DNA from: Gammaproteobacteria bacterium
Lineage (GTDB): Bacteria; Pseudomonadota; Gammaproteobacteria; Poriferisulfidales; GCA-002705445
Direction: 5' to 3'
Length of the DNA stretch: 64,000 bases
Assembly: GCA_018675635.1 (NCBI GenBank)
Contig: JABGXU010000008.1
Location: forward strand, 195,588 to 259,587
The translations under genes were made by a program, and so were the position numbers. Shown in pieces: positions 14,494 through 63,594 of the stretch. Numbering within the stretch: the first letter of the stretch is position 1; each line of letters opens with the position of its first letter. The notes below the pieces were generated by a model, which saw only the letters and a program-made list of their open reading frames with translations, was not told the DNA's origin and did no database searches.

Positions 14494-15006
14494 ATGAAAA
14501 AACTTTACACAATAAAAAATTCAAAATTACATGGAAAAGGGTTATTTGCTAATTGCAACATAAAAGCCGAAACAAATATTGTTGAGTACGTTGGTGAAAA
14601 AATAACAAAAGCACAATCAGAGAAAATATCTGATATACAACTAAAAAAATCTCAAAAAAATAAAGATGAAGGGCAAGTATATATTTTCACATTAAATAAT
14701 AAATATGATATTAACGGCAATGTAAATTATAACAAAGCTAGATTAATGAATCATTCATGTAATTCTAATTGTGATACCGATATAATTGATAATAAAATTT
14801 GGATAAGATCGTATAAAGATATTAAGAAAGGTGAAGAATTGACATATGATTATGGTTTTACTTTTGATAAAGATGATTTTAGAGATCACATTTGTAAATG
14901 TGGGTCAAGAAAATGTGTAGGATTTATTGTAACTGAAACAGACTGGAAAAAGCTAAGAAAGTTTCTGTTAAAGCTAGCTAAAAATTGTTTAAAAACTAAC
15001 GAATAA
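14494..15006 (+). CDS. SET-domain protein methyltransferase with post-SET Cys motif
   Basis: 170 aa. GKGLFA, EYVGEKI, YIF, RLMNHSCNSNC, GEELTYDYGF and post-SET CKCGSRKCVG are the full set of canonical SET signatures. Starts 12 nt after the preceding ORF. Confidence 0.9.
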   Translation: MKKLYTIKNSKLHGKGLFANCNIKAETNIVEYVGEKITKAQSEKISDIQLKKSQKNKDEGQVYIFTLNNKYDINGNVNYNKARLMNHSCNSNCDTDIIDNKIWIRSYKDIKKGEELTYDYGFTFDKDDFRDHICKCGSRKCVGFIVTETDWKKLRKFLLKLAKNCLKTNE

Positions 15007-15655: not shown

Positions 15656-15692
15656 CTACTCTATTCCTACATTAGTTATTTATTTGATATAT

Positions 15693-16877
15693 ATGATAAC
15701 AGAAAAAAAATATACAGCTTTGGTAAACCTATTATTACAGGTACTGTTTGTTGGTATTTTGCTTGGGTTATTTAGAACTGCTATTCCAGCATTATCAGAA
15801 AGTGTTTTTTTAGTCCCTAAAAATTCATTTATATTTTTATCTACTTTTATTATTGCTTTTGGGATCATTAAGGGAATTGCTAATTATTATGCTGGTGTTT
15901 TTGCTGATAAATATAATAGAAAAACTGTTCTATTATTAGGTTGGTTAGTAGCATTTCCAGTTCCTTTTATAATTTATTTTGCTACAAATTGGTATTACAT
16001 AATTTTAGCCACATTTATTATTGGCATTAATCAAGGGCTAACCTGGTCAGTGACACAAATTTCAAGTGTAGATATTACAAAAAATGAGAATAGAGGATTT
16101 ATTGTTGGGTTAAATGAATTTTCTGGATATTTTGGTGTTGCTATTGGAGGTATTTTAGTTAGTTATATGACATCTTTACTTACAGTAAAAATAGCTTTAT
16201 TTCTTTTTAGTATAATATTTATTTTAATAGCTACTTTATATTGTATATTTTTGGTTAAAGAAACAAAAAGCTATGCAAACATAGCATTTGGTAAAAATCC
16301 AAAAAACGTTTTTTTATATGTAACATGGACAAATAAAAAATTATTTGCTTATTCTCAGGCAGGACACATTGAAAAATTTGTTGATACTTGTATATGGATC
16401 TTCTTCCCTGTTTATTTGTTTAATAACGGTGTAACTTTAATTGAAATTAGTTACATAGTTGGTACATATACTTTTACTTGGGGGATTTTTCAAATTTTCA
16501 CGGGTTTGTATTCTGATTATGTGGGAAGAAACTTATTAATTATATCAGGAATGTTAATTTGTTCTATTGTACTTCCATTATGTTTATTAAGTCTTGAATT
16601 TAGTTGGTGGATGACGTGTAGTTTTTTTCTTGGTTTGGGTATGGCTCTTTTATATCCGTCAATAAGCTCTGCTGTTAATGATAATTGTGATGATAGTTGG
16701 AGAGCTTCTGCAATTGGTATATATAGATTTTGGAGGGATACCGGTTATGCTACAGGAGCATTAGGATTAGGCATAGTAACAAGTTTAGTAAACATTGAGG
16801 CTGGCTTTATTTTTGTTTCTTTCAGCATGATATTGTCAACTTTAATTTTAATTTTTACTTTAAAAAAATATAGTTAG
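15693..16877 (+). CDS. MFS transporter
   Basis: About 394 aa with about 12 predicted TM helices. The loop motif GVFADKYNRKTV resembles the MFS D-R/K-x-G-R-R/K loop. Start trimmed to ATG 15693 to avoid overlapping the HAD gene. Confidence 0.75.
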   Translation: MITEKKYTALVNLLLQVLFVGILLGLFRTAIPALSESVFLVPKNSFIFLSTFIIAFGIIKGIANYYAGVFADKYNRKTVLLLGWLVAFPVPFIIYFATNWYYIILATFIIGINQGLTWSVTQISSVDITKNENRGFIVGLNEFSGYFGVAIGGILVSYMTSLLTVKIALFLFSIIFILIATLYCIFLVKETKSYANIAFGKNPKNVFLYVTWTNKKLFAYSQAGHIEKFVDTCIWIFFPVYLFNNGVTLIEISYIVGTYTFTWGIFQIFTGLYSDYVGRNLLIISGMLICSIVLPLCLLSLEFSWWMTCSFFLGLGMALLYPSISSAVNDNCDDSWRASAIGIYRFWRDTGYATGALGLGIVTSLVNIEAGFIFVSFSMILSTLILIFTLKKYS

Positions 16878-52024: not shown

Positions 52025-52812
52025 TGAAAAACGAAAAAAAAATTATTTCTTCTAATTATTTGGAATCTGCAATTGTTCAAAAAGAGGTAATAAGTAGATT
52101 AATGCAAAGACTCTCTCTTATTAATATATCTCCTAGAAAGATTATAGATTTAGGAGCAGGAGTAGGACTAAGCACTGAATATTTATTAAATCAGTATAGT
52201 AAATCAGAGCTTTATATGTTGGATAATTCTTTAGCAGCCCTAAAAAATAAAATTTTTAGTAAAGGTAATGTGTTTTCAATTTGTGGTGATTTTAAAAGTA
52301 TTCCATTAGAAAGTAATACGTTTGATTTTGTTTTTTCATCTTCTGCATTACATTGGGAATTAGATATAAATTTATCTTTTAAAGAAATATATCGTATTCT
52401 AAAACCCGGAGGACTATTTTTGTTTTCAACATATGGTCCAGATACATTGATAGAACTTAGGTCGTCATGGGCACAAATTGACAACAAGAAGCACGTTAAT
52501 GATTTTTATGATATGCATGATATAGGTGATTTAATGTTAAATTTAAACTTTTTGGATACAGTTGTCGATGCTGAAAAAATAGTAATTCAATACAATAACG
52601 TAATTCAACTCCAGAAAGATCTAAAAAATATTGGTTCGAAAGTTGTGCATGATGATAATAAAAATCAAAAGTTATATGGTAATAATCGCATGTTAGCTAT
52701 GTATCAAGAATATGAAAAATTTAGAGCAAAAAATGGCAATTTACCAGCAACTTACGAAGTAATTTATGGTTCTGCCTGGAAAAAATTTGATGTTATGAAA
52801 TTAGTTGATTAA
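52024..52812 (+). CDS. bioC: malonyl-[ACP] O-methyltransferase BioC
   Basis: 262 aa. IIDLGAGVG, FDFVFSSSALHW, LKPGGLFLFST. Alignment by eye to BioC runs along the full length. Confidence 0.78.
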   Translation: MKNEKKIISSNYLESAIVQKEVISRLMQRLSLINISPRKIIDLGAGVGLSTEYLLNQYSKSELYMLDNSLAALKNKIFSKGNVFSICGDFKSIPLESNTFDFVFSSSALHWELDINLSFKEIYRILKPGGLFLFSTYGPDTLIELRSSWAQIDNKKHVNDFYDMHDIGDLMLNLNFLDTVVDAEKIVIQYNNVIQLQKDLKNIGSKVVHDDNKNQKLYGNNRMLAMYQEYEKFRAKNGNLPATYEVIYGSAWKKFDVMKLVD

Positions 52813-53540
52813 ATATTAGCAATTTCGTAAAGTTTTTTTTTGTTAAGTATAGATATTAAATTATTTTTAATCGATATAACATCTTGTTCGTAAAATTTTT
52901 TTATAAGCCTACTTATAGTTTCTTTACTTACACCTAAATAATTACCTATATCAGTTTTTGTCATTATAAGTTTATATTGGTCAGGTGCAATCCCTCTATC
53001 TATATATCTTTTAGTTAAACTAATAATAAATCGAGCAAATTTTTGTTGAGAATCACACTTTGCCATCATTAATAGCATGTCATGATCACTAGATATAACA
53101 TTGCTAATAAGATTCAGAAGTTGTTTTTGTAAATCCGGCATTTTTACGCACAAAATATTAAGATCTGTGATTGGTAATTCACAGATAGATGTTGGTTCAA
53201 GAGTAGATGCTGAACAACTATGAATCATATTATCTAGCCCATCTAAACCAAGTAGCTCGCCTGGCAAATGAAAACCAAGAATTTGTTCGTCACCATTTTT
53301 TGCTGTCGTAAAAGTTTTTATTGAACCTGATTTTACCGCAAAGATGCTACCTGAGGATTCACCTTGTTTAAAAATTGCTCTATTTTTTGATTTAATTTTT
53401 TCTGTTTTTACAATTCTATCAAGTTTTTCAAGACCTTCAATATCTAAGCATCTTGGAAGACATAAATTTTTTAAAGAACAATTTTCACAACGAACTTTAA
53501 GATCGCGAAATTTAATTTTTGTAGATGTAACATTATTCAT
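52809..53540 (-). CDS. fnr: FNR/ANR-type oxygen-sensing Crp-family transcription regulator
   Basis: 243 aa. N-terminal CENCSLKNLC (C-x2-C-x5-C) plus the SICELP Cys give all four [4Fe-4S] ligands. The ETISR recognition helix is identical to E. coli FNR. Confidence 0.9.
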   Translation of the reverse strand: MNNVTSTKIKFRDLKVRCENCSLKNLCLPRCLDIEGLEKLDRIVKTEKIKSKNRAIFKQGESSGSIFAVKSGSIKTFTTAKNGDEQILGFHLPGELLGLDGLDNMIHSCSASTLEPTSICELPITDLNILCVKMPDLQKQLLNLISNVISSDHDMLLMMAKCDSQQKFARFIISLTKRYIDRGIAPDQYKLIMTKTDIGNYLGVSKETISRLIKKFYEQDVISIKNNLISILNKKKLYEIANI

Positions 53541-53595: not shown

Positions 53596-53609
53596 TTGAT
53601 TTATATCAA
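53596..53609. promoter_or_regulatory. FNR/ANR box
   Basis: TTGATTTATATCAA is a perfect TTGAT-N4-ATCAA. It lies in the 129-bp divergent spacer between fnr and the GST-like/AlkB-like operon. A TATATT hexamer at 53632-53637 would place the box centre near -41.5. Confidence 0.7.
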
Positions 53610-53669
53610 TAAAACCAATATGAATTTAAGTTATATTTCAAAAAATATATAAATTGAGGAAATAAGGGA

Positions 53670-54269
53670 ATGTTTTTTAAAAAGAAAAAAGAAAAAGATA
53701 AAATAAAACTATATTGTGCAGCCGAGAATCCAGGCTCTTATTCTGCCATTTTTTTATCTTCATATAGACAAATAGATATAGATGTTGAGTGGGTAGATCC
53801 AGCCGAGGGCTCAGAATATAGCGCTTTAATTGGTACGAATACCTTGCCTTCATTAATAGATGGTAAATTTGCAATATGTCGAATATTCCCTGTTTTAACA
53901 TATTTAAATATTATTGGGTCTAAACCAAAAATAGAACCAAGAAAAGCACGTATCTTGGCAAAAGAGAAATACTATATATCTTTAATAGAAAAAGTTTTAT
54001 GGGTAATTAATATTGATAGTGAAAAAGAAAAACTATTATTTTTATTAGATCAGCAGTTGGAAAAGTACAAATTTATCGCTGGTGATGAATTAACTCTAGC
54101 AGATATATATTTATTTGGATTTACTATGATTTCAAATAATGATTTAGTTAAATATAAAAATATTGGTGTTTGGTTAAAAAAAATGTTTTCACTTGTGCCT
54201 AATCAAAATACAGAGTCAATGATTGATGGTGAATTTTATAAACTTCTTAAAGAAAGGAAAATAGCATGA
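53670..54269 (+). CDS. glutathione S-transferase-like protein
   Basis: 199 aa. Thioredoxin-like N-domain (KLYCA...TLPSLIDGKFAI...VLTYL) and helical C-domain (FIAGDELTLADIYLF). The RBS GAGG..AAGGGA lies upstream. Confidence 0.6.
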   Translation: MFFKKKKEKDKIKLYCAAENPGSYSAIFLSSYRQIDIDVEWVDPAEGSEYSALIGTNTLPSLIDGKFAICRIFPVLTYLNIIGSKPKIEPRKARILAKEKYYISLIEKVLWVINIDSEKEKLLFLLDQQLEKYKFIAGDELTLADIYLFGFTMISNNDLVKYKNIGVWLKKMFSLVPNQNTESMIDGEFYKLLKERKIA

Positions 54270-55009
54270 AAGAATTATTTGATGATATTGCTATATCAGT
54301 TGATGCGTATGGAGCTGATGGAGATATGAAAAAAACGCAATATGTTCTAGATTTGATTGGTTCAGTATCAAATCCGGAAACTTACAAATGTATTTTAGCA
54401 GCTAGCGAGCAGGGAATGGAAATGAACTGTTACGCTTTAGAAAATTTAAATGACTCACAATTTGATGAAATGAAGGGCGAAACATTAGCTCTAAGAGAAT
54501 CAGATTTTATAATTAGTGGATCAGAAGCAATTGTGGCTTTTATAGATGCAAGAGGGCTAGGATATTCATTGGAGCTTAAAAACGCTCAACTTGCTGCGAT
54601 ACAAAATTATTGGGTAGATATTGCAAATGTTGCTTTCTCCGATTCTGTTTGCAAACTTATATATGGCAATGTTGGTAAACGAAAAGACAAACATACTTTA
54701 ACAAAAGATTCATTAGAAAAAATAAATTTATATTTAGATGCTCTGGATAAGCAACTTAAAAATAATAAATATATAGTTTGTAACAAATATACTTTCGCTG
54801 ATCTTCATTGGACTGCCTATATTCATTTTATATTAATTAGTGATTATGAGGATTTGATAGATAATAAAAAGAATATTCAGGATTGGCTCCAAAGAATTAA
54901 ATCAAGAAAAAGTCAATGTGGTCAAGAAATCGTTGCTTATGATAATTTGCCCAACAAAACTGATATAGAAAACAAAAAATTATCTTCTGTAAGAATAGGT
55001 GATTTTTAG
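54266..55009 (+). CDS. divergent GST-like protein with N-terminal extension
   Basis: 247 aa. A GST C-domain-like segment (LDALDKQLKNNKYIVCNKYTFADLHW). ATGA overlap with the previous GST-like gene. Confidence 0.45.
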   Translation: MKELFDDIAISVDAYGADGDMKKTQYVLDLIGSVSNPETYKCILAASEQGMEMNCYALENLNDSQFDEMKGETLALRESDFIISGSEAIVAFIDARGLGYSLELKNAQLAAIQNYWVDIANVAFSDSVCKLIYGNVGKRKDKHTLTKDSLEKINLYLDALDKQLKNNKYIVCNKYTFADLHWTAYIHFILISDYEDLIDNKKNIQDWLQRIKSRKSQCGQEIVAYDNLPNKTDIENKKLSSVRIGDF

Positions 55010-55052
55010 AAACAAGCATTAATTATTGCTAATAAAAGAGAGAAATAAATAA

Positions 55053-56240
55053 ATGAAAAAGTTTTTGATTAATATTAGATATTTTTTAACACCATTGTTA
55101 ATATTTTTAACGGCTATAAGTATAATTATTGGAGGAACATATTGTTGGCTTGGATTATCATTATTAGTTTCATCAATTCTTATTGATTGGGTATCAAGCA
55201 AATTAAGTTTTTGTAATGCACAAGCAGCTGGTACTGATGAAAATGGTGAAAACTATGGCATAGAAAGTTTGTTAAAAACTATGATGTGGTTTCAGTATCC
55301 TGTGTTTGTAGTCATACAATTAGCATTAGCATATAGAGTTTATAGCTATATAAATCATATTGATTTTGAGGTTATAAGTCTTTATGGGTTACCAATACAA
55401 ATGGGTACAACTGGAGCAGAATTAGTAGGTGCAGCTATTTCTTCTGGTATTATTCTTGGTCTTGGAATTATGTTTGGCCATGAGCTTGCTCATACAAAAG
55501 GCCCTACATTCATATTATCAAGATGGATGATGGCGCTAACTGGAATAGCGCATTTTTGTTATGCGCATGTTTATAACCACCATCTAGAACTTGGGTGTGA
55601 AGATGATCCTGCGACTGCACCTAGGGGAAGAACTATTTATTCTCATTGGTTACTTTCTCATTTTGGACAGTCAAGATTCCTTTACGTAATGGAGCAACAT
55701 CGTCTCCAGAGATTAGGAAAACCATTTTTGTCTTTTAGCAATAGATGGCTAAGAGGATATGCAATGAGTTTGCCTACTATATTTTTATTTTGGTTTATTG
55801 GAGGGTGGGTAGGATTACTTATAATGTTGATAACATGGATTATTTCTTCATTTGAATTAGAGGTTTTAAATTATTTAGAGCACTATGGATTAATTAGAGA
55901 GACAGGTTCTCCAATTGACTATAGGCATTCTTGGGATGTTCACAGCTCTCCTTGGACTCAATGGGGTTTTATAGAAATTGGTTTACAGGCCGATCATCAT
56001 GATAGAGGTGAAACTCACTTCTGGGAATTAAATAAATGTGATGCACCTGATACTGGTCTAGGTTATTACGCCATGTTATCAATGATAATAGTGCCGCCAG
56101 TTTGGGAATCTTTTATAAAACCACATCTAGCAAAATGGGACGAAGAAAGAGCTTCTGAGGGCGAGAAAATTATTGCAGGAAAGATGAATTACAAAGCAGG
56201 TTGGACAGACATGCCGTTATGCGAAGGGAGTGAAAAATGA
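55053..56240 (+). CDS. AlkB-type integral-membrane di-iron hydroxylase (alkane 1-monooxygenase family), divergent
   Basis: 395 aa. GHELAHTKG (His box 1), AHVYNHH (box 2), DPATAP, NYLEHYGL (AlkB HYG motif), HSWDV, and LQADHH (a shortened box 3). Confidence 0.7.
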   Translation: MKKFLINIRYFLTPLLIFLTAISIIIGGTYCWLGLSLLVSSILIDWVSSKLSFCNAQAAGTDENGENYGIESLLKTMMWFQYPVFVVIQLALAYRVYSYINHIDFEVISLYGLPIQMGTTGAELVGAAISSGIILGLGIMFGHELAHTKGPTFILSRWMMALTGIAHFCYAHVYNHHLELGCEDDPATAPRGRTIYSHWLLSHFGQSRFLYVMEQHRLQRLGKPFLSFSNRWLRGYAMSLPTIFLFWFIGGWVGLLIMLITWIISSFELEVLNYLEHYGLIRETGSPIDYRHSWDVHSSPWTQWGFIEIGLQADHHDRGETHFWELNKCDAPDTGLGYYAMLSMIIVPPVWESFIKPHLAKWDEERASEGEKIIAGKMNYKAGWTDMPLCEGSEK

Positions 56241-56443
56241 GAGTAAAAATTGCTTTATTTGTAATATTAATATTTACATATTCAATATATTATTTGTTAG
56301 AAAGTATAGGAGTGAATGAGCATCATGATGACCTTGTTTGGGCTTTTTTAACTTCGGTTACCTTTTTATTAACACTATTAATTGATGTTTATTTGTTTTT
56401 TGCTATAGCAAAAGAAGATGCATATAAATGGGGTATTGACTGA
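56237..56443 (+). CDS. small two-TM membrane protein coupled to the AlkB-like gene
   Basis: 68 aa with two hydrophobic helices. ATGA overlap with the AlkB-like stop. Confidence 0.45.
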   Translation: MRVKIALFVILIFTYSIYYLLESIGVNEHHDDLVWAFLTSVTFLLTLLIDVYLFFAIAKEDAYKWGID

Positions 56444-56606: not shown

Positions 56607-57083
56607 ATGATTGCAAAGAAAATCGATGGTTGTGAAGAATATATAATTAGTGGCAATAACTCATTATCTTTTCGAGACAGCGTTATATTTATATCTTTAA
56701 TAAGCTTTATTTCTTTATCTATTGCAATAGGATTCTCGTATAAAGGTTATTGGGTAATACTCCCATTTGCTGGAGTGGAGATGATTTTATTAGCAGTTAT
56801 GCTATTATATTGCTGCCATAATAATTCAATGTGCGAGAAGATTCAGATTTTTGGGGATAAAGTCAATATATCTTCAAAATATAGGAAAAATAAAGGATTT
56901 TTTGAGGTAAATAAATATTGGTCATCTATAGTTTTGAGTAAACCGAAGCTTAGAGGTCATCCTCATAGGTTGTTTATAAGATATAAAGGAAGGGAAATGG
57001 AAATCGGAGTTATGTTGGAAGACAAAGAAAGATTAAAGCTTGCAGCTATGCTAAACACTTCACTTAAAAAAAGGAATAAATAA
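56607..57083 (+). CDS. DUF2244-like membrane protein preceding cytochrome oxidase genes
   Basis: 158 aa with two adjacent TM helices followed by a soluble domain. 1-nt overlap with coxB. The position is typical of DUF2244. Confidence 0.55.
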   Translation: MIAKKIDGCEEYIISGNNSLSFRDSVIFISLISFISLSIAIGFSYKGYWVILPFAGVEMILLAVMLLYCCHNNSMCEKIQIFGDKVNISSKYRKNKGFFEVNKYWSSIVLSKPKLRGHPHRLFIRYKGREMEIGVMLEDKERLKLAAMLNTSLKKRNK

Positions 57084-57883
57084 TGCGCTATTTAAACAAA
57101 TTTTTAATTTTTGTGATGATTAATATTTCGGTATTACCTGCTCAAGCTGGCTGGCTGGATCTAAATATGCCTAAGGGCGTTACTGATATTAGTAATGAAG
57201 TTTTTGGTCTACATATGTTAATACTTTGGATTTGCGTTGTTATCGGAGTTATTGTTTTTGGAGCAATGTTTTGGTCTATATTAATGCATCGAAAATCAAA
57301 AGGAGTGACACCAGCAACTTGGCATGAAAGTACAAAATTAGAATTTATATGGACTATTGTTCCTTTTATAATTTTAATTGGAATGGCTGTTCCTGCTACC
57401 AAAACATTAATAAAGATGTACGATCATAGTGATTCTGAAATACATATTAAAATTACTGGTTATCAATGGTTGTGGCAATACGAATATTTAAATACAGGCA
57501 TTTCTTATTATAGTAAATTATCTACTCCATATAGCGAAATTTATAATAAGAAAAGCAAGAACGTTAATTATTTACAACAAGTGGACAATGAACTTGTTGT
57601 TCCAATTAATAAAAAAATAAGATTTTTGTTAACTTCTAATGATGTTTTGCATGCATGGTGGGTTCCAGACTTAGCATTAAAGAGGGATGCAATGCCAGGG
57701 TACATAAATGAGATGTCTACAATAATAAATAAACCAGGAATCTATAGAGGTAGTTGTGCTGAATTATGCGGAAGACATCATGGTTTTATGCCAATAGTTA
57801 TTAAAGCTGTTACAGAGGATGAATATGAAAAATGGTTAACTGCTAGAAAGGTTAAGACATCTGGGGTTGCCAAAATTAAATAA
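57083..57883 (+). CDS. coxB: cytochrome c oxidase subunit II
   Basis: 266 aa with two TM helices. The CuA site HAWWVP...CAELCGRHHGFM. Confidence 0.93.
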   Translation: MRYLNKFLIFVMINISVLPAQAGWLDLNMPKGVTDISNEVFGLHMLILWICVVIGVIVFGAMFWSILMHRKSKGVTPATWHESTKLEFIWTIVPFIILIGMAVPATKTLIKMYDHSDSEIHIKITGYQWLWQYEYLNTGISYYSKLSTPYSEIYNKKSKNVNYLQQVDNELVVPINKKIRFLLTSNDVLHAWWVPDLALKRDAMPGYINEMSTIINKPGIYRGSCAELCGRHHGFMPIVIKAVTEDEYEKWLTARKVKTSGVAKIK

Positions 57884-57897
57884 AAAGGAGAAATATT

Positions 57898-59469
57898 ATG
57901 AGTTCGGTTGTAAAAGATACGCATCATGATGATCATCCATCAGGTATTATGAGATGGATAAGAACTACAAACCATAAGGATATTGGAACATTATATTTAT
58001 GGTTTGCTATGATAATGTTTTTTATAGGCGGCTTCATGGCATTAATTATCCGTTCAGAACTTTTTCAACCTGGACTTCAATTTGTTGACCCTCAGTTCTT
58101 TAATTCTATGACGACAATGCACGCGCTTGTTATGCTTTTTGGAGTTGTTATGCCTGCATTTACAGGATTAGCTAACTGGTTAATTCCTATGATGGTTGGT
58201 GGCCCAGATATGGCTTTACCTAGAATGAATAATTGGAGCTTCTGGATTTTACCATTTGCATTTTCAATGCTTCTTTCAACATTATGGATGGATGGTGGTG
58301 CACCTGCTGGAGGATGGACTTTATATCCTCCATTAAGCTTACAAACAGGTGATGCGTTTCCATTTTTAATTTTTTCAATTCATTTTATGGGGCTTTCATC
58401 AATCATGGGCGCTATAAATGTTATAGCTACTATTTTAAATATGAGAGCACCAGGCATGACATTAATGAAAATGCCACTTTTTGTTTGGACTTGGTTAATT
58501 ACTGCATTCTTACTTATAGCTGTAATGCCTGTATTAGCTGGTGGAGTAACAATGCTTCTCACAGATAAGTTTTTTGGAACTAGTTTTTTTAATGCGGCTG
58601 GTGGTGGAGATCCTGTTATGTTCCAGCATATTTTTTGGTTTTTTGGCCATCCTGAAGTTTATATTTTAATTCTTCCTTCTTTCGGAGTAGTTTCCAGCAT
58701 TATTCCAACTTTTGCTCGAAAACCTTTGTTTGGATATAGCTCAATGGTCTATGCGACAGCATCTATAGCTTTCTTGTCATTTATTGTCTGGGCTCATCAT
58801 ATGTTCACAGTTGGGATTCCTCTTGCAGGGGAATTATTTTTTATGTTCGCAACCATGTTAATTGCTGTTCCTACAGGAGTTAAAGTATTTAATTGGGTGA
58901 CGACTATGTGGAAAGGAGCGATGACATTTGAAACACCAATGTTATTTGCAATAGCGTTTATAGTGATGTTTACTATCGGGGGATTTTCAGGATTAATGTT
59001 GGCTATAACTCCTGCAGACTTTCAATATCATGACACGTATTTTGTAGTTGCTCATTTTCACTATGTATTAGTTCCAGGATCTATATTTGCAATTATGGCA
59101 GCATGTTATTATTGGCTCCCTAAATGGACTGGGAATATGTACCCTGAAACTTTAGGAAAAATACATTTTTGGCTTTCAACTTTTTTTGTAAATTTAACTT
59201 TTTTCCCAATGCATTTTGTAGGACTTGCAGGAATGCCAAGAAGGATTCCGGACTATTCACTTCAATTTGCAGATTATAATATGATTGCTAGCATTGGTGC
59301 TTTTGGTTTTGGTATTGCACAAATATTATTTTTATATATTGTAATTAAGACAATTAAGGGTGGTAAAAAAGCTACAGACCAAGTTTGGGATGGCGCTGAC
59401 GGTTTGGAGTGGACATTACCTTCTCCACCTCCTTATCACTCTTTTAATACGCCGCCTGTAGTAAAATAA
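57898..59469 (+). CDS. coxA: cytochrome c oxidase subunit I
   Basis: 523 aa. TTNHKDIG, WFFGHPEVYILILP, HHMFTVG and the canonical heme-copper ligand pattern. Confidence 0.97.
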   Translation: MSSVVKDTHHDDHPSGIMRWIRTTNHKDIGTLYLWFAMIMFFIGGFMALIIRSELFQPGLQFVDPQFFNSMTTMHALVMLFGVVMPAFTGLANWLIPMMVGGPDMALPRMNNWSFWILPFAFSMLLSTLWMDGGAPAGGWTLYPPLSLQTGDAFPFLIFSIHFMGLSSIMGAINVIATILNMRAPGMTLMKMPLFVWTWLITAFLLIAVMPVLAGGVTMLLTDKFFGTSFFNAAGGGDPVMFQHIFWFFGHPEVYILILPSFGVVSSIIPTFARKPLFGYSSMVYATASIAFLSFIVWAHHMFTVGIPLAGELFFMFATMLIAVPTGVKVFNWVTTMWKGAMTFETPMLFAIAFIVMFTIGGFSGLMLAITPADFQYHDTYFVVAHFHYVLVPGSIFAIMAACYYWLPKWTGNMYPETLGKIHFWLSTFFVNLTFFPMHFVGLAGMPRRIPDYSLQFADYNMIASIGAFGFGIAQILFLYIVIKTIKGGKKATDQVWDGADGLEWTLPSPPPYHSFNTPPVVK

Positions 59470-59594
59470 TGCTAAATATGGGTCAGGAGAATTTTTTGGA
59501 AATAAAAAAGAAAATAAAAATAACAACAATAATTTTAGCTATAGTAGCTTTAACTATATATGTAAGTTTTTATTTCATTGTATCTAATAGGTAA
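59469..59594 (+). CDS. possible 41-aa single-TM micro-protein between coxA and ctaG
   Basis: Manual translation: MLNMGQENFLEIKKKIKITTIILAIVALTIYVSFYFIVSNR. TAATG overlap with the coxA stop. It fills the whole coxA-ctaG gap. Confidence 0.35.
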   Translation: MLNMGQENFLEIKKKIKITTIILAIVALTIYVSFYFIVSNR

Positions 59595-59600
59595 ATAAAA

Positions 59601-60143
59601 ATGAAAGACATGAAGATGAACGTAAAAACAGCAAAGAAACTAATTATTGTATGTTTTGGTATGTTTTTATTTTCTTTTGCTTTAGTGCCATTATATAACG
59701 TTATATGTGATGTAACAGGTTTAAACGGAAACACCTCTAATTTAAGAGAAAAAACTGAACAACATTCAGAAAAGATTAGTAATGAAAAATTAAATATACA
59801 GTTTATTTCTAACGAAATAAATAAAGACAAAATAGATTTTAAGCCATCGGAATTTGAAATGACAATTTCTCCTGGCAAAGTATATAGCACTTATTTTTTA
59901 GTTAGGAATAAATCTAGTTCAATTATAGAAGGTCAGGCAATACCAAGCGTTTCTCCTAATGAGGCATCAATATATTTAAATAAGATTAAGTGTTTCTGTT
60001 TTGAAAAACAGATTATCGAACCAGGAGAAGTTGTTAAACTGCCATTATATTTTTCTGTAAGCGAGAAATTACCTGTAAGAATAAAAACATTAACTTTATC
60101 ATATACATTTTTTGATTTAGTTAAAGTTTCTAAAAAAGATTAA
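59601..60143 (+). CDS. ctaG: cytochrome c oxidase assembly protein CtaG/Cox11
   Basis: 180 aa. VPLYNVICDVTGLNG and the CFCF copper-binding motif. Confidence 0.88.
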   Translation: MKDMKMNVKTAKKLIIVCFGMFLFSFALVPLYNVICDVTGLNGNTSNLREKTEQHSEKISNEKLNIQFISNEINKDKIDFKPSEFEMTISPGKVYSTYFLVRNKSSSIIEGQAIPSVSPNEASIYLNKIKCFCFEKQIIEPGEVVKLPLYFSVSEKLPVRIKTLTLSYTFFDLVKVSKKD

Positions 60144-60167
60144 TTAGAATAAAGGGGATAAATAAAA

Positions 60168-61037
60168 ATGTCAGAGTCAGGAAGTTATTACATACCTCAT
60201 GGAAGTAATTGGCCAATCATAGCATCAATAGGTGTTTGCACTACAATGGTTGGAGGTTCAATTTTATTGAATGGAAGCGATATAGGTAAATATATTTTAT
60301 TTATTGGACTAGCTATTGTTATTTATATGATCGTCGGATGGTTTAGTACAGTAGTATCTGAAAGTGAAAGGGGAATTTACGATTCACAAGTTGATTCATC
60401 TTTTAGATGGGGAATGGTTTGGTTTATTTTCTCAGAAGTAATGTTTTTTGCTGTTTTTTTTGGCGCACTTTTTTATGTTAGATCATATTCTTTGCCTTGG
60501 CTTGGTGGTGAGGGAACAGGCTTAGCAACAAACACTTTTTTATGGCCTAATTATGAAGCTGTTTGGCCTCAGACAGCCAATGGTCCAGGCGAAATTGGTG
60601 GTAAATTTGAACATATGAGTGCATGGGGACTTCCAGCACTTAATACGGCTATATTATTAACTAGTGGTTTAACATTAACATGGGCTCATCATGCTTTAAA
60701 AGAAATGAAAAGAGGTCAATTAATTGCTGGTTTATTCTTAACTGTAGCTCTTGGTTCGGTTTTTATGATTTTTCAGGCGATTGAATATGGGCATGCTTTT
60801 ACTGAGTTAAACTTAAATTTAGGTAGCGGCATATATGGGTCAACTTTTTTTATGTTAACTGGATTTCATGGTTTTCATGTAACTATCGGAACAATTATGT
60901 TGTGTGTAATTTTAGGAAGGTCAATTCGTGGTCATTTTAATCCAAAAAATCATTTTGCATTTGAAGCGGTTGCTTGGTACTGGCATTTTGTTGATGTAGT
61001 TTGGTTAGGGCTTTTTATATTTGTATATTGGATTTAG
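60168..61037 (+). CDS. coxC: cytochrome c oxidase subunit III
   Basis: 289 aa with 7 TM helices. FFMLTGFHGFHV, WYWHFVDVVW. Confidence 0.93.
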   Translation: MSESGSYYIPHGSNWPIIASIGVCTTMVGGSILLNGSDIGKYILFIGLAIVIYMIVGWFSTVVSESERGIYDSQVDSSFRWGMVWFIFSEVMFFAVFFGALFYVRSYSLPWLGGEGTGLATNTFLWPNYEAVWPQTANGPGEIGGKFEHMSAWGLPALNTAILLTSGLTLTWAHHALKEMKRGQLIAGLFLTVALGSVFMIFQAIEYGHAFTELNLNLGSGIYGSTFFMLTGFHGFHVTIGTIMLCVILGRSIRGHFNPKNHFAFEAVAWYWHFVDVVWLGLFIFVYWI

Positions 61038-61244
61038 TTAGTTCTTTATGCCGTGCGGCTGGATATAACCATACTTATACATAATTATTAATATAATAAA
61101 TAATAGGATAGATAACCCTATTCTTATTTTTAGTGCATTTACAACTCTATTTTTGTTACCCTTATCTTTTATTAAGAAAAATAATGAACCAAATAAACTT
61201 ATTATGATTAATAGAAACAAGAATATAAATATAATTTTAAACAT
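61038..61244 (-). CDS. twin-TM small protein (DUF2909/Hig1-like), opposite strand within the cox cluster
   Basis: 68 aa with two TM helices joined by a basic loop (KDKGNKNRVVNALKIR). It abuts the coxC stop with no gap. Confidence 0.5.
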   Translation of the reverse strand: MFKIIFIFLFLLIIISLFGSLFFLIKDKGNKNRVVNALKIRIGLSILLFIILIIMYKYGYIQPHGIKN

Positions 61245-61265
61245 TAATAATAAATTTTTTTGTTT

Positions 61266-61994
61266 ATGAAACTTAAATTACTTTCTAGCATTATTTTTCT
61301 ATCATGTATATCCTTATTTATTAGTTTAGGATTTTGGCAAATAGATAGAGCAAATCAAAAAGATAGTATAGTTGAATTATATAAAGATAGGCAGTTATCT
61401 CCAGTAAAGTCATTACAGACATTTAAAAATAGAGATATAAAAAAGCTACATTTTATAAATTGTAAAATAAAAGGACGATACTTAAATAAAATATTTCTTA
61501 TAGACAATAAGATCAAGAATAATCAACTAGGATTTAATGTAGTAACACCATTTCAGCTTGAGAAAGGGGGTGAAATAATAATTGTAGACAGAGGCTGGCT
61601 GCCAATTAAAGGTGCGCGGTCTGAAATAATTAATAATTTTAATTATTTAAATAATCAAAAAATTGATAAAAATGCACAGGAAATTAATGGGTATATTTAC
61701 CCAAAAGATGAGAGTTATACTATTGGAGAGATATCAACAAATAAAGAATGGCCAAGATTATTGCAAGCAATTGATTTTCAAGAAATTAATAATGATATTT
61801 CAGAAAAAGATTTATTGCTGAGTGGAGTAATATTTAGACTTGGTAAAAATAATGAATTTGGTTTTAATAGGGAGTGGGAAATAGTTTATATGGATAGCAA
61901 TAAGCATCTAGGATATGCATTTCAATGGTTTAGTTTAGCACTTGTATTTCTAGTTATGACAATAATATTTTTTTTAAGAAATAAAGATGGATAA
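61266..61994 (+). CDS. SURF1-family cytochrome oxidase biogenesis protein
   Basis: N-terminal TM followed by LGFWQIDRANQK, VDRGW.P, and a C-terminal HLGYAFQWF plus TM. Confidence 0.8.
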   Translation: MKLKLLSSIIFLSCISLFISLGFWQIDRANQKDSIVELYKDRQLSPVKSLQTFKNRDIKKLHFINCKIKGRYLNKIFLIDNKIKNNQLGFNVVTPFQLEKGGEIIIVDRGWLPIKGARSEIINNFNYLNNQKIDKNAQEINGYIYPKDESYTIGEISTNKEWPRLLQAIDFQEINNDISEKDLLLSGVIFRLGKNNEFGFNREWEIVYMDSNKHLGYAFQWFSLALVFLVMTIIFFLRNKDG

Positions 61995-62559
61995 AAAAAC
62001 AGATTATTATCTTCAAGTAAAAACAAAATTATATTTGTTACTAATTATACTGTCATTTATAGGCCCACTTATACTTGCAACAATAATGTATAAATATAGT
62101 GATGCTCTTCCTGTTGCCCCACCAAAATCATATGGAAGTCTTATTAATCCTGTAATAACAATTAGTAAAAAAGATGAATTTAATAACATATTATCTATAA
62201 AGAAATGGACGTTAATGTATGTATATGGGAGTAATTTATGTGATCTTTCATGTGAAGCTACTTTATATATGATGCATCAGGTTAGGGAATCATTAGGTAA
62301 AGACATGCAAAGAGTATCTAATATTATTGTTACAAATACTGATTTTAATAATAATGATAATAAAAGGATTATTAAAAAATATAAAAATTTAAAACAATTA
62401 GATTTAATAAATAAAAATTTATTTAAAGTATTAAAGCATAATCATCTTTATATGGTTGATCCTTTAGGTAACATATTTATGTATTACGATAAAAATTTTA
62501 AAGCTAAAGGCTTAAAAAAAGATATTAAAAAAATATTAAAAATATCAAGAATTGGTTGA
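61987..62559 (+). CDS. membrane-anchored thioredoxin-fold protein, SCO1/SenC-like (CxxxC)
   Basis: 190 aa with an N-terminal TM. WTLMYVYGSNLCDLSCEATL (CxxxC) and a later HLYMVDPLGN. Sits in the cox assembly cluster. Confidence 0.45.
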   Translation: MDKKTDYYLQVKTKLYLLLIILSFIGPLILATIMYKYSDALPVAPPKSYGSLINPVITISKKDEFNNILSIKKWTLMYVYGSNLCDLSCEATLYMMHQVRESLGKDMQRVSNIIVTNTDFNNNDNKRIIKKYKNLKQLDLINKNLFKVLKHNHLYMVDPLGNIFMYYDKNFKAKGLKKDIKKILKISRIG

Positions 62560-62568
62560 TAAAATTTT

Positions 62569-63594
62569 ATGATAAAAATTAATTATTATTTGTTGTTTGT
62601 TATATTTACTGCATTTGCTGTTATTACATTAGGAGCATATGTTAGATTATCTGACGCTGGTTTAGGTTGTCCAGATTGGCCAGGCTGCTATGGCCATTTA
62701 ATTGGGATACCAAATAATACTTCTGAGATTGTTGCGGCTGAAAATAATTTTTTTGGAACAACTTTTGATGTTATTAAAGCATGGAAAGAAATGATTCATA
62801 GATATCTTGCTGGTTTTTTAGGTATTTTAATATTCATTATATCGCTTATATTTTATAAAAATAATGTTCATAATATTTTTAAATTGTCTGCAATAATATC
62901 TGTTTTGGTAATAATGCAAGCTATTCTTGGAATGCTTACAGTCACTTTTCAACTTCAGCCATTAATTGTAATGTTTCATTTATTAGGCGGTTTAACAATA
63001 ATAACTTTATTATGGTTAATTTTTTTAAGGTTCAATAAAAACAGTTATTTTAGTGAAAGTGAGTTTGTTGTTAATGCCATGAATTACCAAATTAATATGC
63101 TATTAATGTTTGGATATGCAACTCTTATTGTTTTAGTAATTCAAATAATGCTTGGTGGGTGGACTAGTACAAATTATGCTGCATTAGCATGCCCTGATTT
63201 TCCAAAATGTAATACATTTTGGTGGCCTGATATGAATTTTAGTGATGCTTTTATGGTTCAATTTACCACAGGATTAAATTATGAATTTGGCAGACTAGAT
63301 AGCCCTGCACGAGTTGCAATACATTTTAGTCATAGAATTTGGGCAATTTTAGTAACTTTTATGATTTTAGCATTATCAGTAATTTCCTATAATATAATTA
63401 AAGTTTCGTACCAAAAAATTATTTCATATTTATTAGTATTTTTTTTATTAATTCAAGTTTTACTTGGAATACTCAATGTAAAGATGAGTTTGCCAATATA
63501 TATAGCAGTTGCTCATAATGGAAATGCTGCTCTTTTATTGATGTGCTTAGTAACGCAATTATATTTCATAAGAAATGTAAAAAATAATTTATAA
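62569..63594 (+). CDS. ctaA: heme A synthase (COX15/CtaA)
   Basis: 341 aa, polytopic. YVRLSDAGLGCPDWPGCYG, and His pairs in TM helices (HRYLA, FHLLGG, HFSHR, VAHNG). Confidence 0.8.
   Translation: MIKINYYLLFVIFTAFAVITLGAYVRLSDAGLGCPDWPGCYGHLIGIPNNTSEIVAAENNFFGTTFDVIKAWKEMIHRYLAGFLGILIFIISLIFYKNNVHNIFKLSAIISVLVIMQAILGMLTVTFQLQPLIVMFHLLGGLTIITLLWLIFLRFNKNSYFSESEFVVNAMNYQINMLLMFGYATLIVLVIQIMLGGWTSTNYAALACPDFPKCNTFWWPDMNFSDAFMVQFTTGLNYEFGRLDSPARVAIHFSHRIWAILVTFMILALSVISYNIIKVSYQKIISYLLVFFLLIQVLLGILNVKMSLPIYIAVAHNGNAALLLMCLVTQLYFIRNVKNNL

What the first reader, a model, noticed from the sequence alone, without database searches (positions are those of the whole stretch)
53670..56443. Four-gene operon: two GST-like proteins, an AlkB-type membrane hydroxylase and a small membrane protein
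Seen: four same-strand genes that are tightly coupled. There are ATGA overlaps at 54266-54269 and 56237-56240, and one 43-nt gap. They encode two different GST-fold proteins (the second with a roughly 60-aa N-terminal extension), an AlkB-family enzyme and a 68-aa two-TM protein. Established: characterised alkB loci are usually accompanied by rubredoxin, rubredoxin reductase and alcohol/aldehyde dehydrogenases, not GSTs. Inference: this looks like an uncharacterised pathway coupling membrane di-iron oxygenation to glutathione-dependent chemistry. Examples would be conjugation or isomerisation of an oxidised lipid or hydrocarbon, or detoxification of a reactive epoxide or aldehyde. No electron-transfer partner is encoded anywhere in the window.
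Basis: partly seen in the sequence, partly recalled or inferred. Interest (0 to 1): 0.62.

Follow-up and report, generated by a model that had tools for sequence, protein, structure and literature searches.

The report
GST-partnered AlkB-like membrane oxygenase operon
A conserved, uncharacterised operon pairs an AlkB/XylM-like membrane iron oxygenase with its own glutathione-transferase-like proteins, appears to be controlled by an oxygen sensor, and may belong to the long-sought family that starts dimethylsulfide breakdown in marine bacteria.

Summary
The four genes and their overlaps are real. They form a module conserved in at least 41 loci of marine Gammaproteobacteria. Many of those loci come from MAGs labelled as sulfur-oxidiser lineages.

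The module has four products:
- a hydroxylase with the AlkB fold but a QxxHH third histidine box, about 28% identical to both AlkB and XylM;
- a 2-TM mini-protein;
- two paralogous GST-fold proteins from a clade specific to these clusters.

A bona fide FNR gene sits divergently upstream. The only perfect FNR box in the 64-kb window lies between the FNR gene and the operon. When relatives split the module, both halves keep FNR-like boxes.

Relatives add the missing electron chain: a Fer4 ferredoxin, a XylA-like reductase (42% identical to XylA) and a third GST. They also add truncated globins and FadL or OmpW channels.

In Methylophaga-type genomes the sister cluster abuts the methanethiol-oxidase (mto) cluster. 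A published M. thiooxydans transcriptome shows genes with matching annotations induced 29- to 136-fold on DMS. The primary DMS enzyme of that organism is still unknown.

Best reading (about 0.4): the module oxidatively demethylates DMS or a related methyl-sulfur volatile, and the GST-like proteins process the thiol and formaldehyde products. The module itself is well supported; the substrate is inferred.

The parts
52809..53540 (-). FNR-type oxygen-sensing transcription factor, divergent from the operon
   Evidence: NCBIfam PRK11161 Fnr scores 241 bits against a cut-off of 228. The four [4Fe-4S] ligand cysteines (C18, C21, C27, C120) are invariant in 23 of 23 syntenic homologues. The gene is syntenic with the GSTa1-GSTb pair in about 22 loci, in two different arrangements.
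53596..53609 (.). Perfect FNR box TTGATttatATCAA in the 129-bp divergent intergenic region
   Evidence: It is the only exact match in the 64 kb; 0.55 matches are expected per window, which is about 0.001 for this intergenic region (sequence). Orthologous intergenic regions carry TTGATccatATCAA or one to two copies of CTGATnnnnATCAG. Split loci also carry FNR-like boxes 80-150 bp upstream of the hydroxylase gene in 7 of 7 cases.
53632..53637 (+). Candidate -10 hexamer TATATT, which would place the FNR box at about -41.5 (class II geometry)
   Evidence: Read from the sequence; inference only. A TATAAT on the minus strand (53575-53570) would fit the fnr promoter equally well. AT-rich DNA gives many such hexamers, and the consensus scan found no enrichment.
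53670..54269 (+). GST-fold protein 'a' (GSTa1 subtype, 199 aa), with a degenerate glutathione site
   Evidence: Pfam GST_C, E 6.7e-7. PDB delta-class GSTs, E 8e-8. The family has 23 members; the cis-Pro and Glu-Ser G-site positions are not conserved, while the C-terminal N-capping box LADI is conserved. Its closest profile is the 'a2' proteins at the same position in other clusters.
54266..55009 (+). GST-fold protein 'b' (247 aa), with a conserved ~25-aa N-terminal extension and an invariant Thr39-x-Lys41-Cys42
   Evidence: Pfam GST_C, E 1e-10. PDB phi-class GSTs, E 2e-12. The 20-sequence alignment A2 gives invariant F5, Y15, G16, G19, K22-Q25, T39, K41, C42, E48, G50, E52, R96-G99. It is present beside every W-type hydroxylase that has flanks. 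Translationally coupled to GSTa by ATGA.
55053..56240 (+). AlkB/XylM-like integral-membrane di-iron hydroxylase (395 aa), W-type
   Evidence: PF00487, E 2e-24. Best solved relatives are AlkB 8f6t and 8sbb. The AF2 model has pLDDT 76 and pTM 0.81, and matches only AlkB structures, TM 0.64-0.70. Motifs are HELAHT, AHVYNHH, NYLEHYGL and QADHH. It is 27.9% identical to XylM and 28.3% to AlkB. More than 1000 homologues were found, at 55-73% identity.
56237..56443 (+). 68-aa two-TM protein, putative hydroxylase subunit
   Evidence: It lies immediately downstream of the hydroxylase in nearly all W-type loci, and after the reductase in M-type clusters. The family has 51 members with a conserved D/N..(L)W A...Y F..A.E...W pattern. 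No Pfam family passes cut-off. Coupled to the hydroxylase gene by ATGA.

Best explanation
The four genes encode the core of a multicomponent membrane monooxygenase. Its parts are an AlkB/XylM-fold di-iron hydroxylase, a 2-TM mini-subunit, and a pair of dedicated GST-fold proteins that probably form an a/b heterodimer. In this lineage the neighbouring O2 sensor FNR probably controls expression, likely raising it at low oxygen. The reducing system is encoded elsewhere in the genome. In relatives it is a Fer4 ferredoxin plus a XylA-type NAD(P)H reductase.

The most likely reaction is hydroxylation of a methyl group of dimethylsulfide, or of a closely related volatile methyl-sulfur compound. That would give the hemithioacetal CH3-S-CH2OH, which yields methanethiol plus formaldehyde. 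The Cys-bearing GSTb, with the degenerate GSTa as partner, would carry out thiol-exchange chemistry on these reactive products. One example is trapping formaldehyde as S-hydroxymethylglutathione while releasing methanethiol. Methanethiol would then go to methanethiol oxidase or to assimilation.

Shown: gene structure, folds, motifs, conserved synteny, the FNR box, and the partner genes in relatives. Inferred: direction of FNR control, the heterodimer, the substrate, and the GST chemistry. I put the module-level statement at about 0.85 and the DMS/methyl-sulfur substrate at about 0.4. The confidence given below is for the full statement including the substrate.
For: Module: the GSTa, GSTb, hydroxylase and small genes co-occur in 41 of 42 W-type loci with flanks. 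They do so across three gene orders and several lineages whose MAG labels include Thiotrichales, Ca. Thiodiazotropha, Chromatiaceae, Arenicellales and Piscirickettsiaceae.

Oxygenase identity.

Electron chain and uptake in relatives: trHb, Fer4_19, GSTc and a Fer2/FAD/NAD reductase lie next to the hydroxylase, with FadL in the same operon. The reductase is 41.6% identical to XylA, E 3e-84. OmpW recurs in 13 W-type loci. Seven genomes carry both a W-type operon and an M-type cluster, and in three of them the M-type locus includes the ferredoxin-GSTc-reductase genes; these could act in trans.

FNR.

Methyl-sulfur link:
(i) In Methylophaga-type contigs the sister (M-type) cluster directly adjoins mto-cluster genes. 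L092 has mtoX (SBP56), SCO1/MauG, TlpA-like and PDO-rhodanese. L090 and L177 have pdo, sqrB and sulP. L093 has PDO, AhpC and a SorA-like gene.
(ii) W-type full clusters also lie within 4-6 kb of mtoX or SCO1/MauG, in L037, L038 and L044.
[quoted passage not shown] These are the components of this cluster. The authors state that the primary DMS enzyme is missing.
(iv) A 2026 review lists only DmoA for DMS to methanethiol.
(v) A SCO4226-like gene sits inside Methylophaga AlkB-like operons, and its homologue lies directly upstream of mtoX in about 40 of 80 metagenomic mtoX loci.
(vi) From established knowledge, not tested here: AlkB-type enzymes are known to oxidise thioethers and to demethylate methyl ethers.
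Against: The window (64 kb) has no mtoX, pdo, ferredoxin or reductase gene.

The reciprocal test was negative: 0 of 80 metagenomic mtoX loci (53 of them at least 8 kb) have an AlkB-like gene within 10 kb. Physical linkage is therefore confined to a few lineages.

I could not confirm by sequence that MDMS009_226, _61, _199 and _906 of M. thiooxydans belong to these families. The match rests on annotations and co-induction. That paper's authors read the same induction as a membrane-lipid repair response.

The window enzyme is W-type, only 56% identical to the Methylophaga M-type, so the substrate could differ.

Many M-type genes are 'orphans' in unrelated contexts: next to FabA and a MerR-like regulator, or among LPS genes.

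The window lineage of GSTb lacks the canonical cis-Pro motif, and GSTa has a degenerate G-site, so glutathione use is unproven.

The FNR box lies midway between two divergent genes and could serve fnr autoregulation instead.
Confidence: 0.4

Rival explanations
1. The oxygenase attacks a hydrocarbon or alkene (short alkane, aromatic methyl group, isoprene-like alkene) or an oxidised lipid. The GSTs then conjugate or isomerise the reactive epoxide or aldehyde. This would be a bacterial 'phase I + phase II' detoxification or catabolic entry module.
For: The fold and motifs are AlkB/XylM-like. The reductase in relatives is XylA-like, and FadL/TodX-type and OmpW/AlkL-type channels are typical of hydrocarbon operons. 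Two GSTs accompany the oxygenases of the isoprene and styrene pathways (papers listed). An identical contig carries the record name GBIDBA_10001579. From memory, this is a hydrothermal-plume assembly from a hydrocarbon-rich basin.
Against: No alcohol or aldehyde dehydrogenase, CoA-transferase or beta-oxidation genes are conserved with the module. The GSTs lack a conserved Ser/Tyr conjugation residue; GSTb, GSTa2 and GSTc share an invariant Cys, which is more typical of thiol-transferase GSTs. The recurring neighbours are sulfur and methanethiol genes and microoxic-respiration genes, not hydrocarbon catabolism genes. Identity to any characterised AlkB or XylM is only 26-35%.
Confidence: 0.25
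2. The protein is a membrane-lipid-modifying desaturase or hydroxylase. It adjusts membrane composition under low O2 or under sulfide/H2O2 stress. The GST-like proteins would act as redox or lipid-peroxide-handling helpers. This is the reading given by the authors of the M. thiooxydans study.
For: Pfam family FA_desaturase. The third histidine box is QxxHH, which from my own knowledge is the form found in front-end desaturases. M-type orphans sit beside fabA. W-type operons lie next to FNR and terminal-oxidase genes. This interpretation is offered in PMC6548844.
Against: The predicted fold matches only AlkB, and no desaturase structure was hit. The AlkB/XylM signature NYxEHYGL is invariant. 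A XylA-like reductase, a dedicated ferredoxin and a FadL channel in the same operon point to an imported small hydrophobic substrate. Induction of 136-fold, together with a substrate channel, on a specific growth substrate is more typical of a catabolic enzyme.
Confidence: 0.12
3. The module acts on a different small sulfur or nitrogen species. Candidates are methanethiol itself, dimethyl di- or polysulfides, sulfane sulfur, or NO/nitroalkane-related compounds. The globins, NorQ/NorD-like ATPases and NMO genes would reflect that chemistry.
For: The MAG labels of the related loci are mostly sulfur-oxidiser lineages, although that physiology was not checked here. Truncated globins, CbbQ/VWA (NorQ/D-like) pairs and nitronate-monooxygenase-family genes occur in Methylophaga-type clusters. 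Cys-type GSTs suit disulfide and persulfide exchange.
Against: A reductant-consuming monooxygenase is an unlikely way to oxidise inorganic sulfur for energy. CbbQ/VWA, NMO and the globins are absent from the window and from most W-type loci. No NO-responsive regulator is present; the FNR here has the full O2-sensing cysteine set.
Confidence: 0.1
4. The four genes are merely adjacent and are not a functional unit.
For: No transcript data are available. No terminator or clear promoter could be assigned by the consensus scans.
Against: There are 4-nt start/stop overlaps. The genes co-occur in 41 of 42 loci across three rearranged gene orders. Both halves retain FNR-like boxes when the module is split.
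Confidence: 0.03

Closest known systems
Xylene monooxygenase XylM/XylA with the XylN channel (TOL plasmid pWW0)
   Same: Both have an integral-membrane histidine-rich di-iron hydroxylase. The full-length alignment to XylM gives 27.9% identity over 391 aa. In relatives the reductase has the same Fer2 + FAD/NAD architecture as XylA and is 41.6% identical to it. A FadL/XylN-type outer-membrane channel lies in the same operon in relatives.
   Different: The third histidine box is QxxHH, not HxxHH. The module adds a 2-TM mini-subunit, one to three dedicated GST-fold proteins, an extra Fer4 ferredoxin and truncated globins. It has no benzyl-alcohol or benzaldehyde dehydrogenases. The window operon itself has no reductase. 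The hosts are mostly uncultured marine Gammaproteobacteria plus methylotrophic Methylophaga, not the soil pseudomonads that carry TOL.
Alkane 1-monooxygenase AlkB with rubredoxin AlkG and reductase AlkT (structures 8f6t, 8sbb)
   Same: AlkB is the only solved fold matched (TM 0.64-0.70). The HELxH, HxxxHH and NYxEHYGL motifs are shared. OmpW/AlkL-type channels occur nearby in relatives.
   Different: Identity is about 28% over 283 aa. One of the canonical histidine positions is an invariant Gln. There is no rubredoxin or rubredoxin reductase. No NCBIfam AlkB model is hit. The module has GST partners and sits next to an FNR gene and box.
DMS monooxygenase DmoAB of Hyphomicrobium sulfonivorans (FMNH2-dependent, luciferase family)
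   Same: It catalyses the proposed overall reaction: DMS + O2 + reductant gives methanethiol + formaldehyde. It feeds MtoX. It is the only enzyme currently listed for this step.
   Different: It is a completely unrelated enzyme family: soluble and flavin-dependent. No homology is claimed or found. The similarity is 'works like' only, and is hypothetical.
Glutathione-dependent isoprene (IsoABCDEF + IsoGHIJ) and styrene (StyI/StyJ) pathways
   Same: In both, an oxygenase is encoded together with two different GSTs (papers listed).
   Different: Those oxygenases are soluble di-iron or flavin enzymes that make epoxides. Those clusters always include a dehydrogenase and a CoA-transferase. Here those genes are absent, and the GSTs form their own clade with an invariant Cys.
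FNR class II-activated promoters (E. coli paradigm)
   Same: The regulator has all four cluster cysteines and sits beside a perfect TTGAT-N4-ATCAA box. The spacing is compatible with -41.5.
   Different: No transcription start site is known. The box is equidistant from two divergent genes. Some relatives use CTGAT-N4-ATCAG.

Membership tests
AlkB-type integral-membrane alkane 1-monooxygenase | Membrane FADS-like domain (PF00487) with the AlkB fold: six TM helices plus a cytosolic cap | tested here: met
   Pfam E 2e-24. The AF2 model (pLDDT 76, pTM 0.81) matches only 8f6t and 8sbb, TM 0.64-0.70.
AlkB-type integral-membrane alkane 1-monooxygenase | His box 1 HE[LM]xHK and the NYxEHYG[LM] motif | tested here: met
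   HELAHT (H143, H147) and NYLEHYGL (H277) are invariant in the 13-sequence alignment.
AlkB-type integral-membrane alkane 1-monooxygenase | His box 2 EHxxGHH | tested here: inconclusive
   The window has AHVYNHH. The three His (H172, H176, H177) are invariant, but the Glu and Gly are replaced.
AlkB-type integral-membrane alkane 1-monooxygenase | His box 3 LQRHSDHH (three histidines) | tested here: not met
   The window has LQADHH. The first His aligns to the invariant Gln312, giving a QxxHH box.
AlkB-type integral-membrane alkane 1-monooxygenase | Rubredoxin and rubredoxin-reductase electron donors | tested here: not met
   There is no rubredoxin-motif ORF in the window. Relatives use a Fer4_19 ferredoxin and a XylA-like reductase.
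AlkB-type integral-membrane alkane 1-monooxygenase | Terminal hydroxylation of n-alkanes | not testable with these tools
   This needs an enzyme assay. Identity to characterised AlkBs is only 26-35%, and no NCBIfam equivalog is hit.
Xylene monooxygenase XylMA | XylM-type hydroxylase plus XylA-type (Fer2-FAD-NAD) reductase encoded together | tested here: inconclusive
   The hydroxylase is 27.9% identical to XylM. A XylA-like reductase (41.6% identity) lies adjacent in relatives but is absent from the window.
Cytosolic glutathione S-transferase superfamily | All-helical GST C-terminal domain with an N-capping box | tested here: met
   Pfam GST_C passes cut-off for both proteins. Both hit PDB GSTs. 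The (S/T)xAD motif is conserved in all four subfamilies. The C-terminal domain of the GST2 model is confident, with pLDDT 80-94.
Cytosolic glutathione S-transferase superfamily | Thioredoxin-like N-domain with an intact G-site: catalytic Ser/Tyr/Cys, cis-Pro, and the Glu-Ser gamma-glutamyl site | tested here: inconclusive
   GSTb has an invariant T39-x-K41-C42. However, the window lineage has a 6-aa deletion and lacks the SPxGxxP motif present in most GSTb. In GSTa1 the G-site positions are not conserved. The AF2 N-domain has pLDDT below 50.
Cytosolic glutathione S-transferase superfamily | Binds glutathione and catalyses GSH-dependent chemistry | not testable with these tools
   This needs biochemistry.
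FNR regulon (O2-labile [4Fe-4S] FNR with a TTGAT-N4-ATCAA operator) | A regulator with the four cluster cysteines, and a consensus box upstream of the target | tested here: met
   The Fnr model passes cut-off. The cysteines are invariant. A perfect box, unique in the window, lies at 53596-53609. Boxes are conserved in orthologous regions.
FNR regulon (O2-labile [4Fe-4S] FNR with a TTGAT-N4-ATCAA operator) | Box centred at -41.5 relative to a mapped transcription start, with O2-dependent expression | not testable with these tools
   Only a candidate -10 hexamer is available. There is no transcription start site or expression data.
DMS monooxygenase (DmoAB) | Luciferase-family FMNH2-dependent DmoA subunit | tested here: not met
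   The hydroxylase is a PF00487 membrane di-iron protein. Only functional analogy is proposed, not membership.
GSH-dependent epoxide pathways (Iso/Sty type) | Oxygenase + GST + HGMB-type dehydrogenase + CoA-transferase in one cluster | tested here: not met
   No dehydrogenase or CoA-transferase is conserved with the module in about 90 loci.

The most novel reading that the evidence does not exclude
This family is a previously unrecognised, membrane-bound AlkB/XylM-like di-iron dimethylsulfide monooxygenase. If so, it is the missing primary DMS-degrading enzyme of Methylophaga and other Piscirickettsiaceae. It would work with obligatory GST-fold partner proteins and a 2-TM subunit. It would be widespread in marine Gammaproteobacteria from sulfur-oxidiser lineages, including lucinid and sponge symbiont lineages. 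In the window's lineage it would be under FNR control, letting thiotrophs harvest DMS sulfur and methyl carbon at low oxygen.
Probability: 0.35. Interest if true: 0.88.

Novelty: new variant of a known kind. Interest (0 to 1): 0.72.

Why it matters
DMS is the largest biogenic sulfur flux from ocean to atmosphere. Only one enzyme, DmoA, is known to convert it to methanethiol. The best-studied marine DMS degraders, Methylophaga, lack it.

A conserved and experimentally tractable gene set that is induced on DMS and sits beside mtoX makes that open question directly testable. It would also add a functional marker gene for DMS consumption in oxygen-minimum zones, vents, sediments and symbioses.

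Independent of the substrate, the module has mechanistic interest. It is a new architecture for AlkB-type enzymes: a QxxHH box, a mini-subunit, dedicated GST-fold partners, and an adjacent FNR gene and box.

Tried and rejected
- NCBIfam gave no model for the hydroxylase or the small protein.
- Rfam found only one tRNA in the window.
- Six literature searches for a described AlkB+GST system, or for alkB in SUP05, Thioglobus or Thiodiazotropha, found nothing relevant.
- The AF2 model of GST2 was poor in the N-domain (pLDDT below 50). I did not use it for a fold search or for G-site inference.
- I tried to confirm the M. thiooxydans genes by matching gene-start nucleotide strings in the paper's supplementary sequence file; there was no match.
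- Cluster look-ups did not reveal which homologue is M. thiooxydans DMS010.
- The reciprocal metagenome scan from MtoX found no AlkB-like gene within 10 kb in 80 loci. I count this as evidence against general physical linkage.
- Consensus promoter and terminator scans were uninformative. No terminator separates the operon from the downstream DUF2244-cox genes, so read-through cannot be excluded.
- I considered and set aside roles in ubiquinone or haem-a biosynthesis, suggested by the neighbouring oxidase genes. The oxidase type differs between lineages (aa3 here, cbb3 in relatives), and the full clusters carry substrate channels.
- I considered an NO-related role. It is kept only as a minor rival.

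Full report
**Observation.** The window carries four + strand ORFs exactly as described: 53670-54269 (199 aa), 54266-55009 (247 aa), 55053-56240 (395 aa) and 56237-56443 (68 aa). ATGA start/stop overlaps lie at 54266 and 56237, and a 43-nt gap precedes the third gene. The first two products have GST C-terminal domains. The third is a PF00487 membrane 'fatty-acid desaturase'-superfamily protein. The fourth has no family and two hydrophobic segments. The window is about 29% G+C. It is identical over this region to metagenome contigs, including one named GBIDBA_10001579. The rest of the window is housekeeping: cmoB, metK, ahcY, pyrBC, metX, degP, dsbD, accC, purHD, rho, pyk, pgk, tkt. Downstream lies a DUF2244-coxBAC-ctaG-surf1 oxidase cluster.

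**The hydroxylase.** Its only solved relatives by sequence are AlkB structures 8f6t and 8sbb (E 9e-25). An AlphaFold model built on 13 homologues has pLDDT 76 and pTM 0.81. It matches only those two structures, at TM 0.64-0.70, and matches no desaturase.

- The protein keeps HELAHT, the HxxxHH of box 2 and the AlkB/XylM signature NYLEHYGL.
- Its third box is QADHH. An invariant Gln stands where AlkB and XylM have His.
- It is 27.9% identical to pWW0 XylM over 391 aa, and 28.3% identical to an OCT-type AlkB over 283 aa.
- Plasmid-borne AlkB and XylM proteins are all 26-35% identical.
- No NCBIfam model matches.

It is therefore a distinct branch of the AlkB/XylM group. The branch is large: more than 1000 homologues at 55-73% identity, almost all unnamed.

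**Synteny.** A scan of species-representative genomes returned 80 loci. tblastn and ORF clustering separate two hydroxylase subfamilies.

*W-type* proteins are 64-70% identical to the window protein.
- In 41 of 42 W-type loci with enough flank, the hydroxylase is accompanied by the small 2-TM gene and by a pair of GST-fold genes.
- The small gene is nearly always the next gene downstream.
- Three gene orders occur: FNR(-)|GSTa-GSTb-hydroxylase-small (the window and about 15 loci); hydroxylase-small-FNR(-)|GSTa-GSTb (about 8 loci); and hydroxylase-small-GSTa-GSTb (about 20 loci).

*M-type* proteins are about 56% identical to the window protein and include Methylophaga sulfidovorans.
- Some are followed by (trHb)-Fer4 ferredoxin-GSTc-reductase-small.
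- Others stand alone.

The GST-fold proteins fall into four groups (a1, a2, b, c). All are closer to each other than to other GSTs. The window's GST1 (a1) is closest to a2.

MAG labels of these loci include Thiotrichales, Ca. Thiodiazotropha, Chromatiaceae, Arenicellales, Ca. Porisulfidus and Piscirickettsiaceae.

**The GST-fold proteins.**
- GST2 (b) resembles phi-class GSTs (E 2e-12). GST1 (a1) resembles delta-class GSTs (E 8e-8).
- All groups keep the C-terminal N-capping box.
- Groups b, a2 and c share a Thr-x-Lys-Cys motif at the start of helix 1. In GSTb, T39, K41 and C42 are invariant, as is a ~25-aa N-terminal extension (F5, Y15, G16, G19, K22-Q25).
- The extension is therefore about 25 aa, not about 60.
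- In a1 proteins the usual glutathione-site positions are not conserved.
- The window lineage of GSTb has lost the SPxGxxP cis-Pro motif.
- I infer that a and b form a heterodimer in which b is catalytic. An invariant Cys suggests thiol-transfer rather than conjugation chemistry. None of this is shown.

**Regulation.** The divergent gene at 52809-53540 passes the NCBIfam Fnr cut-off. All 23 syntenic homologues keep the four [4Fe-4S] cysteines.

- The only exact TTGAT-N4-ATCAA match in the 64 kb lies at 53596-53609, in the 129-bp intergenic region. About 0.55 matches are expected per window.
- A TATATT hexamer at 53632-53637 would put the box at -41.5 for the operon. A minus-strand TATAAT would serve fnr about as well. 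The target promoter is therefore not settled.
- Orthologous intergenic regions carry TTGATccatATCAA or CTGAT-N4-ATCAG palindromes.
- Where the module is split, 7 of 7 loci also have an FNR-like box 80-150 bp upstream of the hydroxylase gene. The background rate is 0.3 per kb.
- In 11-13 W-type loci the operon is followed by yip1-ccoNOQP-hemerythrin. Truncated globin and ompW genes flank the FNR gene.
- These points suggest low-oxygen expression; this is inferred.
- No terminator separates the operon from the cox genes.

**Missing partners.** The window has no homologue of the ferredoxin, reductase or globin, and no ORF with an iron-sulfur-motif pattern. Relatives supply them. One example is L088: trHb-Fer4_19-GSTc-reductase-hydroxylase-small-GSTa2-GSTb-69aa-FadL. 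The reductase has XylA architecture and is 41.6% identical to XylA. Seven genomes hold both a W-type operon and an M-type cluster. In three of them (the L011/L071, L014/L074 and L015/L063 pairs) the M-type locus carries the ferredoxin-GSTc-reductase genes. So trans supply is plausible for the window organism.

**Function.** The strongest clue comes from Methylophaga-type loci. There the M-type cluster abuts genes of the methanethiol-oxidase cluster.
- L092: mtoX (SBP56), SCO1/MauG, a TlpA-like protein and PDO-rhodanese.
- L090 and L177: pdo, sqrB-like and sulP.
- L093: PDO, AhpC and a SorA-like molybdoenzyme.
- W-type full clusters in an Arenicellales genome (L044) and two other MAGs (L037, L038) lie 4-6 kb from mtoX or SCO1/MauG.

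Kroeber and Schaefer (PMC6548844) compared M. thiooxydans grown on DMS and on methanol. Table S6 lists:
- 'oxidoreductase, NAD-binding domain', 618 vs 12;
- glbN truncated globin, 601 vs 21;
- 'membrane protein, aromatic hydrocarbon degradation', 1469 vs 18;
- mtoX, 17350 vs 37.

The paper states that no Methylophaga has dmoA or ddh, and that the primary DMS enzyme is missing. It reads the desaturase as lipid repair. A 2026 review still lists DmoA as the only DMS-to-methanethiol enzyme. 13C-DMS stable-isotope probing identifies Methylophaga and other Piscirickettsiaceae as key DMS degraders.

The induced set matches the composition of the cluster described here. I therefore propose that the family hydroxylates a methyl group of DMS, giving methanethiol plus formaldehyde. 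The GST-fold proteins would handle these thiol and aldehyde products.

**Caveats.**
- I could not verify by sequence that the M. thiooxydans genes belong to these families.
- The reciprocal scan from MtoX found no AlkB-like gene within 10 kb in 80 metagenomic loci. It did show that a SCO4226-like gene present inside Methylophaga AlkB-like operons is the usual upstream neighbour of mtoX.
- The window itself has no mtoX.
- The window's enzyme is the W-type paralogue.
- Many M-type genes are orphans in unrelated contexts.

I rate the module-level conclusion at about 0.85 and the DMS/methyl-sulfur substrate at about 0.4.

**Comparison with known systems.** The module works most like the XylMA and AlkB multicomponent membrane monooxygenases, and it shares their fold. 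It fails two defining AlkB features: the third His box and the rubredoxin partners. It also adds components not described for either system. I found no published description. I therefore class it as a new variant of a known kind. It is of above-average interest because it offers a concrete, testable candidate for an unresolved step of the marine sulfur cycle.

Noticed in passing
L097-L176 (metagenomic mtoX loci), e.g. L106 9605-10000, L160 9485-10000: A SCO4226-like small gene lies directly upstream of mtoX in about 40 of 80 loci. It is 62-74% identical to the one inside Methylophaga AlkB-like operons. In 5 loci a Fer4_19 ferredoxin (55-59% identical) sits between the two genes. This looks like an unrecognised MtoX accessory pair.
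   Followed up: partly
L048 6340-12208 and about 25 similar loci (L049-L061 and others): 'Orphan' M-type AlkB-like genes lack GST and redox partners. They are conserved next to a MerR/LitR-like regulator and fabA, and are followed by a TraB/GumN-like protein. This may be a different role for that sub-branch.
   Followed up: partly
L004 3616-6514, L090 6771-9682, L092 6776-9693, L093 6728-9665, L177 6640-9545, L044 about 14284-16452: A CbbQ/MoxR-type AAA+ ATPase and a large VWA protein (NorQ/NorD-like pair) are divergently transcribed from the AlkB-like operon. By analogy with NorQD, they could insert the non-haem iron. They are absent from the window.
   Followed up: no
window 56607-63594: The operon is followed, with no recognisable terminator, by DUF2244-coxB-coxA-ctaG-coxC-DUF2909-surf1 (an aa3 oxidase). 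In 11-13 related loci the same position holds yip1-ccoNOQP-hemerythrin (a cbb3 oxidase). A terminal-oxidase operon is thus a recurrent downstream neighbour, but its type differs.
   Followed up: partly
L009-L020, intergenic regions between the FNR gene and GSTa1: One or two CTGAT-N4-ATCAG palindromes stand in place of the canonical TTGAT-N4-ATCAA box. This suggests a shifted operator preference of the local FNR orthologues.
   Followed up: partly
L019 (CAXMUG010000034.1): A 4.1-kb contig binned as 'uncultured Mycobacterium sp.' carries the gammaproteobacterial GSTb-hydroxylase-small cluster at 69% identity to the window. This is probably mis-binning.
   Followed up: no
L028 13026-13235 and 10 other a2-type loci; L088 13200-13409: A conserved 69-70-aa ORF follows GSTb where no FNR gene is present. 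From reading its sequence it looks like a small helix-turn-helix protein, and might be an alternative regulator. No family search was run on it.
   Followed up: no
L004 1168-2043, L090 5646-6486, L092 5915-6754: A tandem pair of paralogous 134/135-aa proteins (about 41-45% identical to each other, no Pfam family) lies between the mto-type genes and the CbbQ/VWA pair in Methylophaga-type loci.
   Followed up: no
window 1326-3814 and 11800-13541: Methionine/SAM-cycle genes lie in the same window: metK, ahcY, metX (succinyl type), and an adjacent 199-aa ORF that may be metW. They would be relevant only if methanethiol is assimilated. No link is shown.
   Followed up: no
L094 2218-8026: A separate 314-aa FA_desaturase-amine oxidase-DUF1365-CFA synthase-DUF2878-CFA synthase cluster lies upstream of an M-type cluster in a 4.7-Mb genome. 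It shows that 'fatty acid desaturase' annotations in these genomes cover unrelated systems.
   Followed up: no
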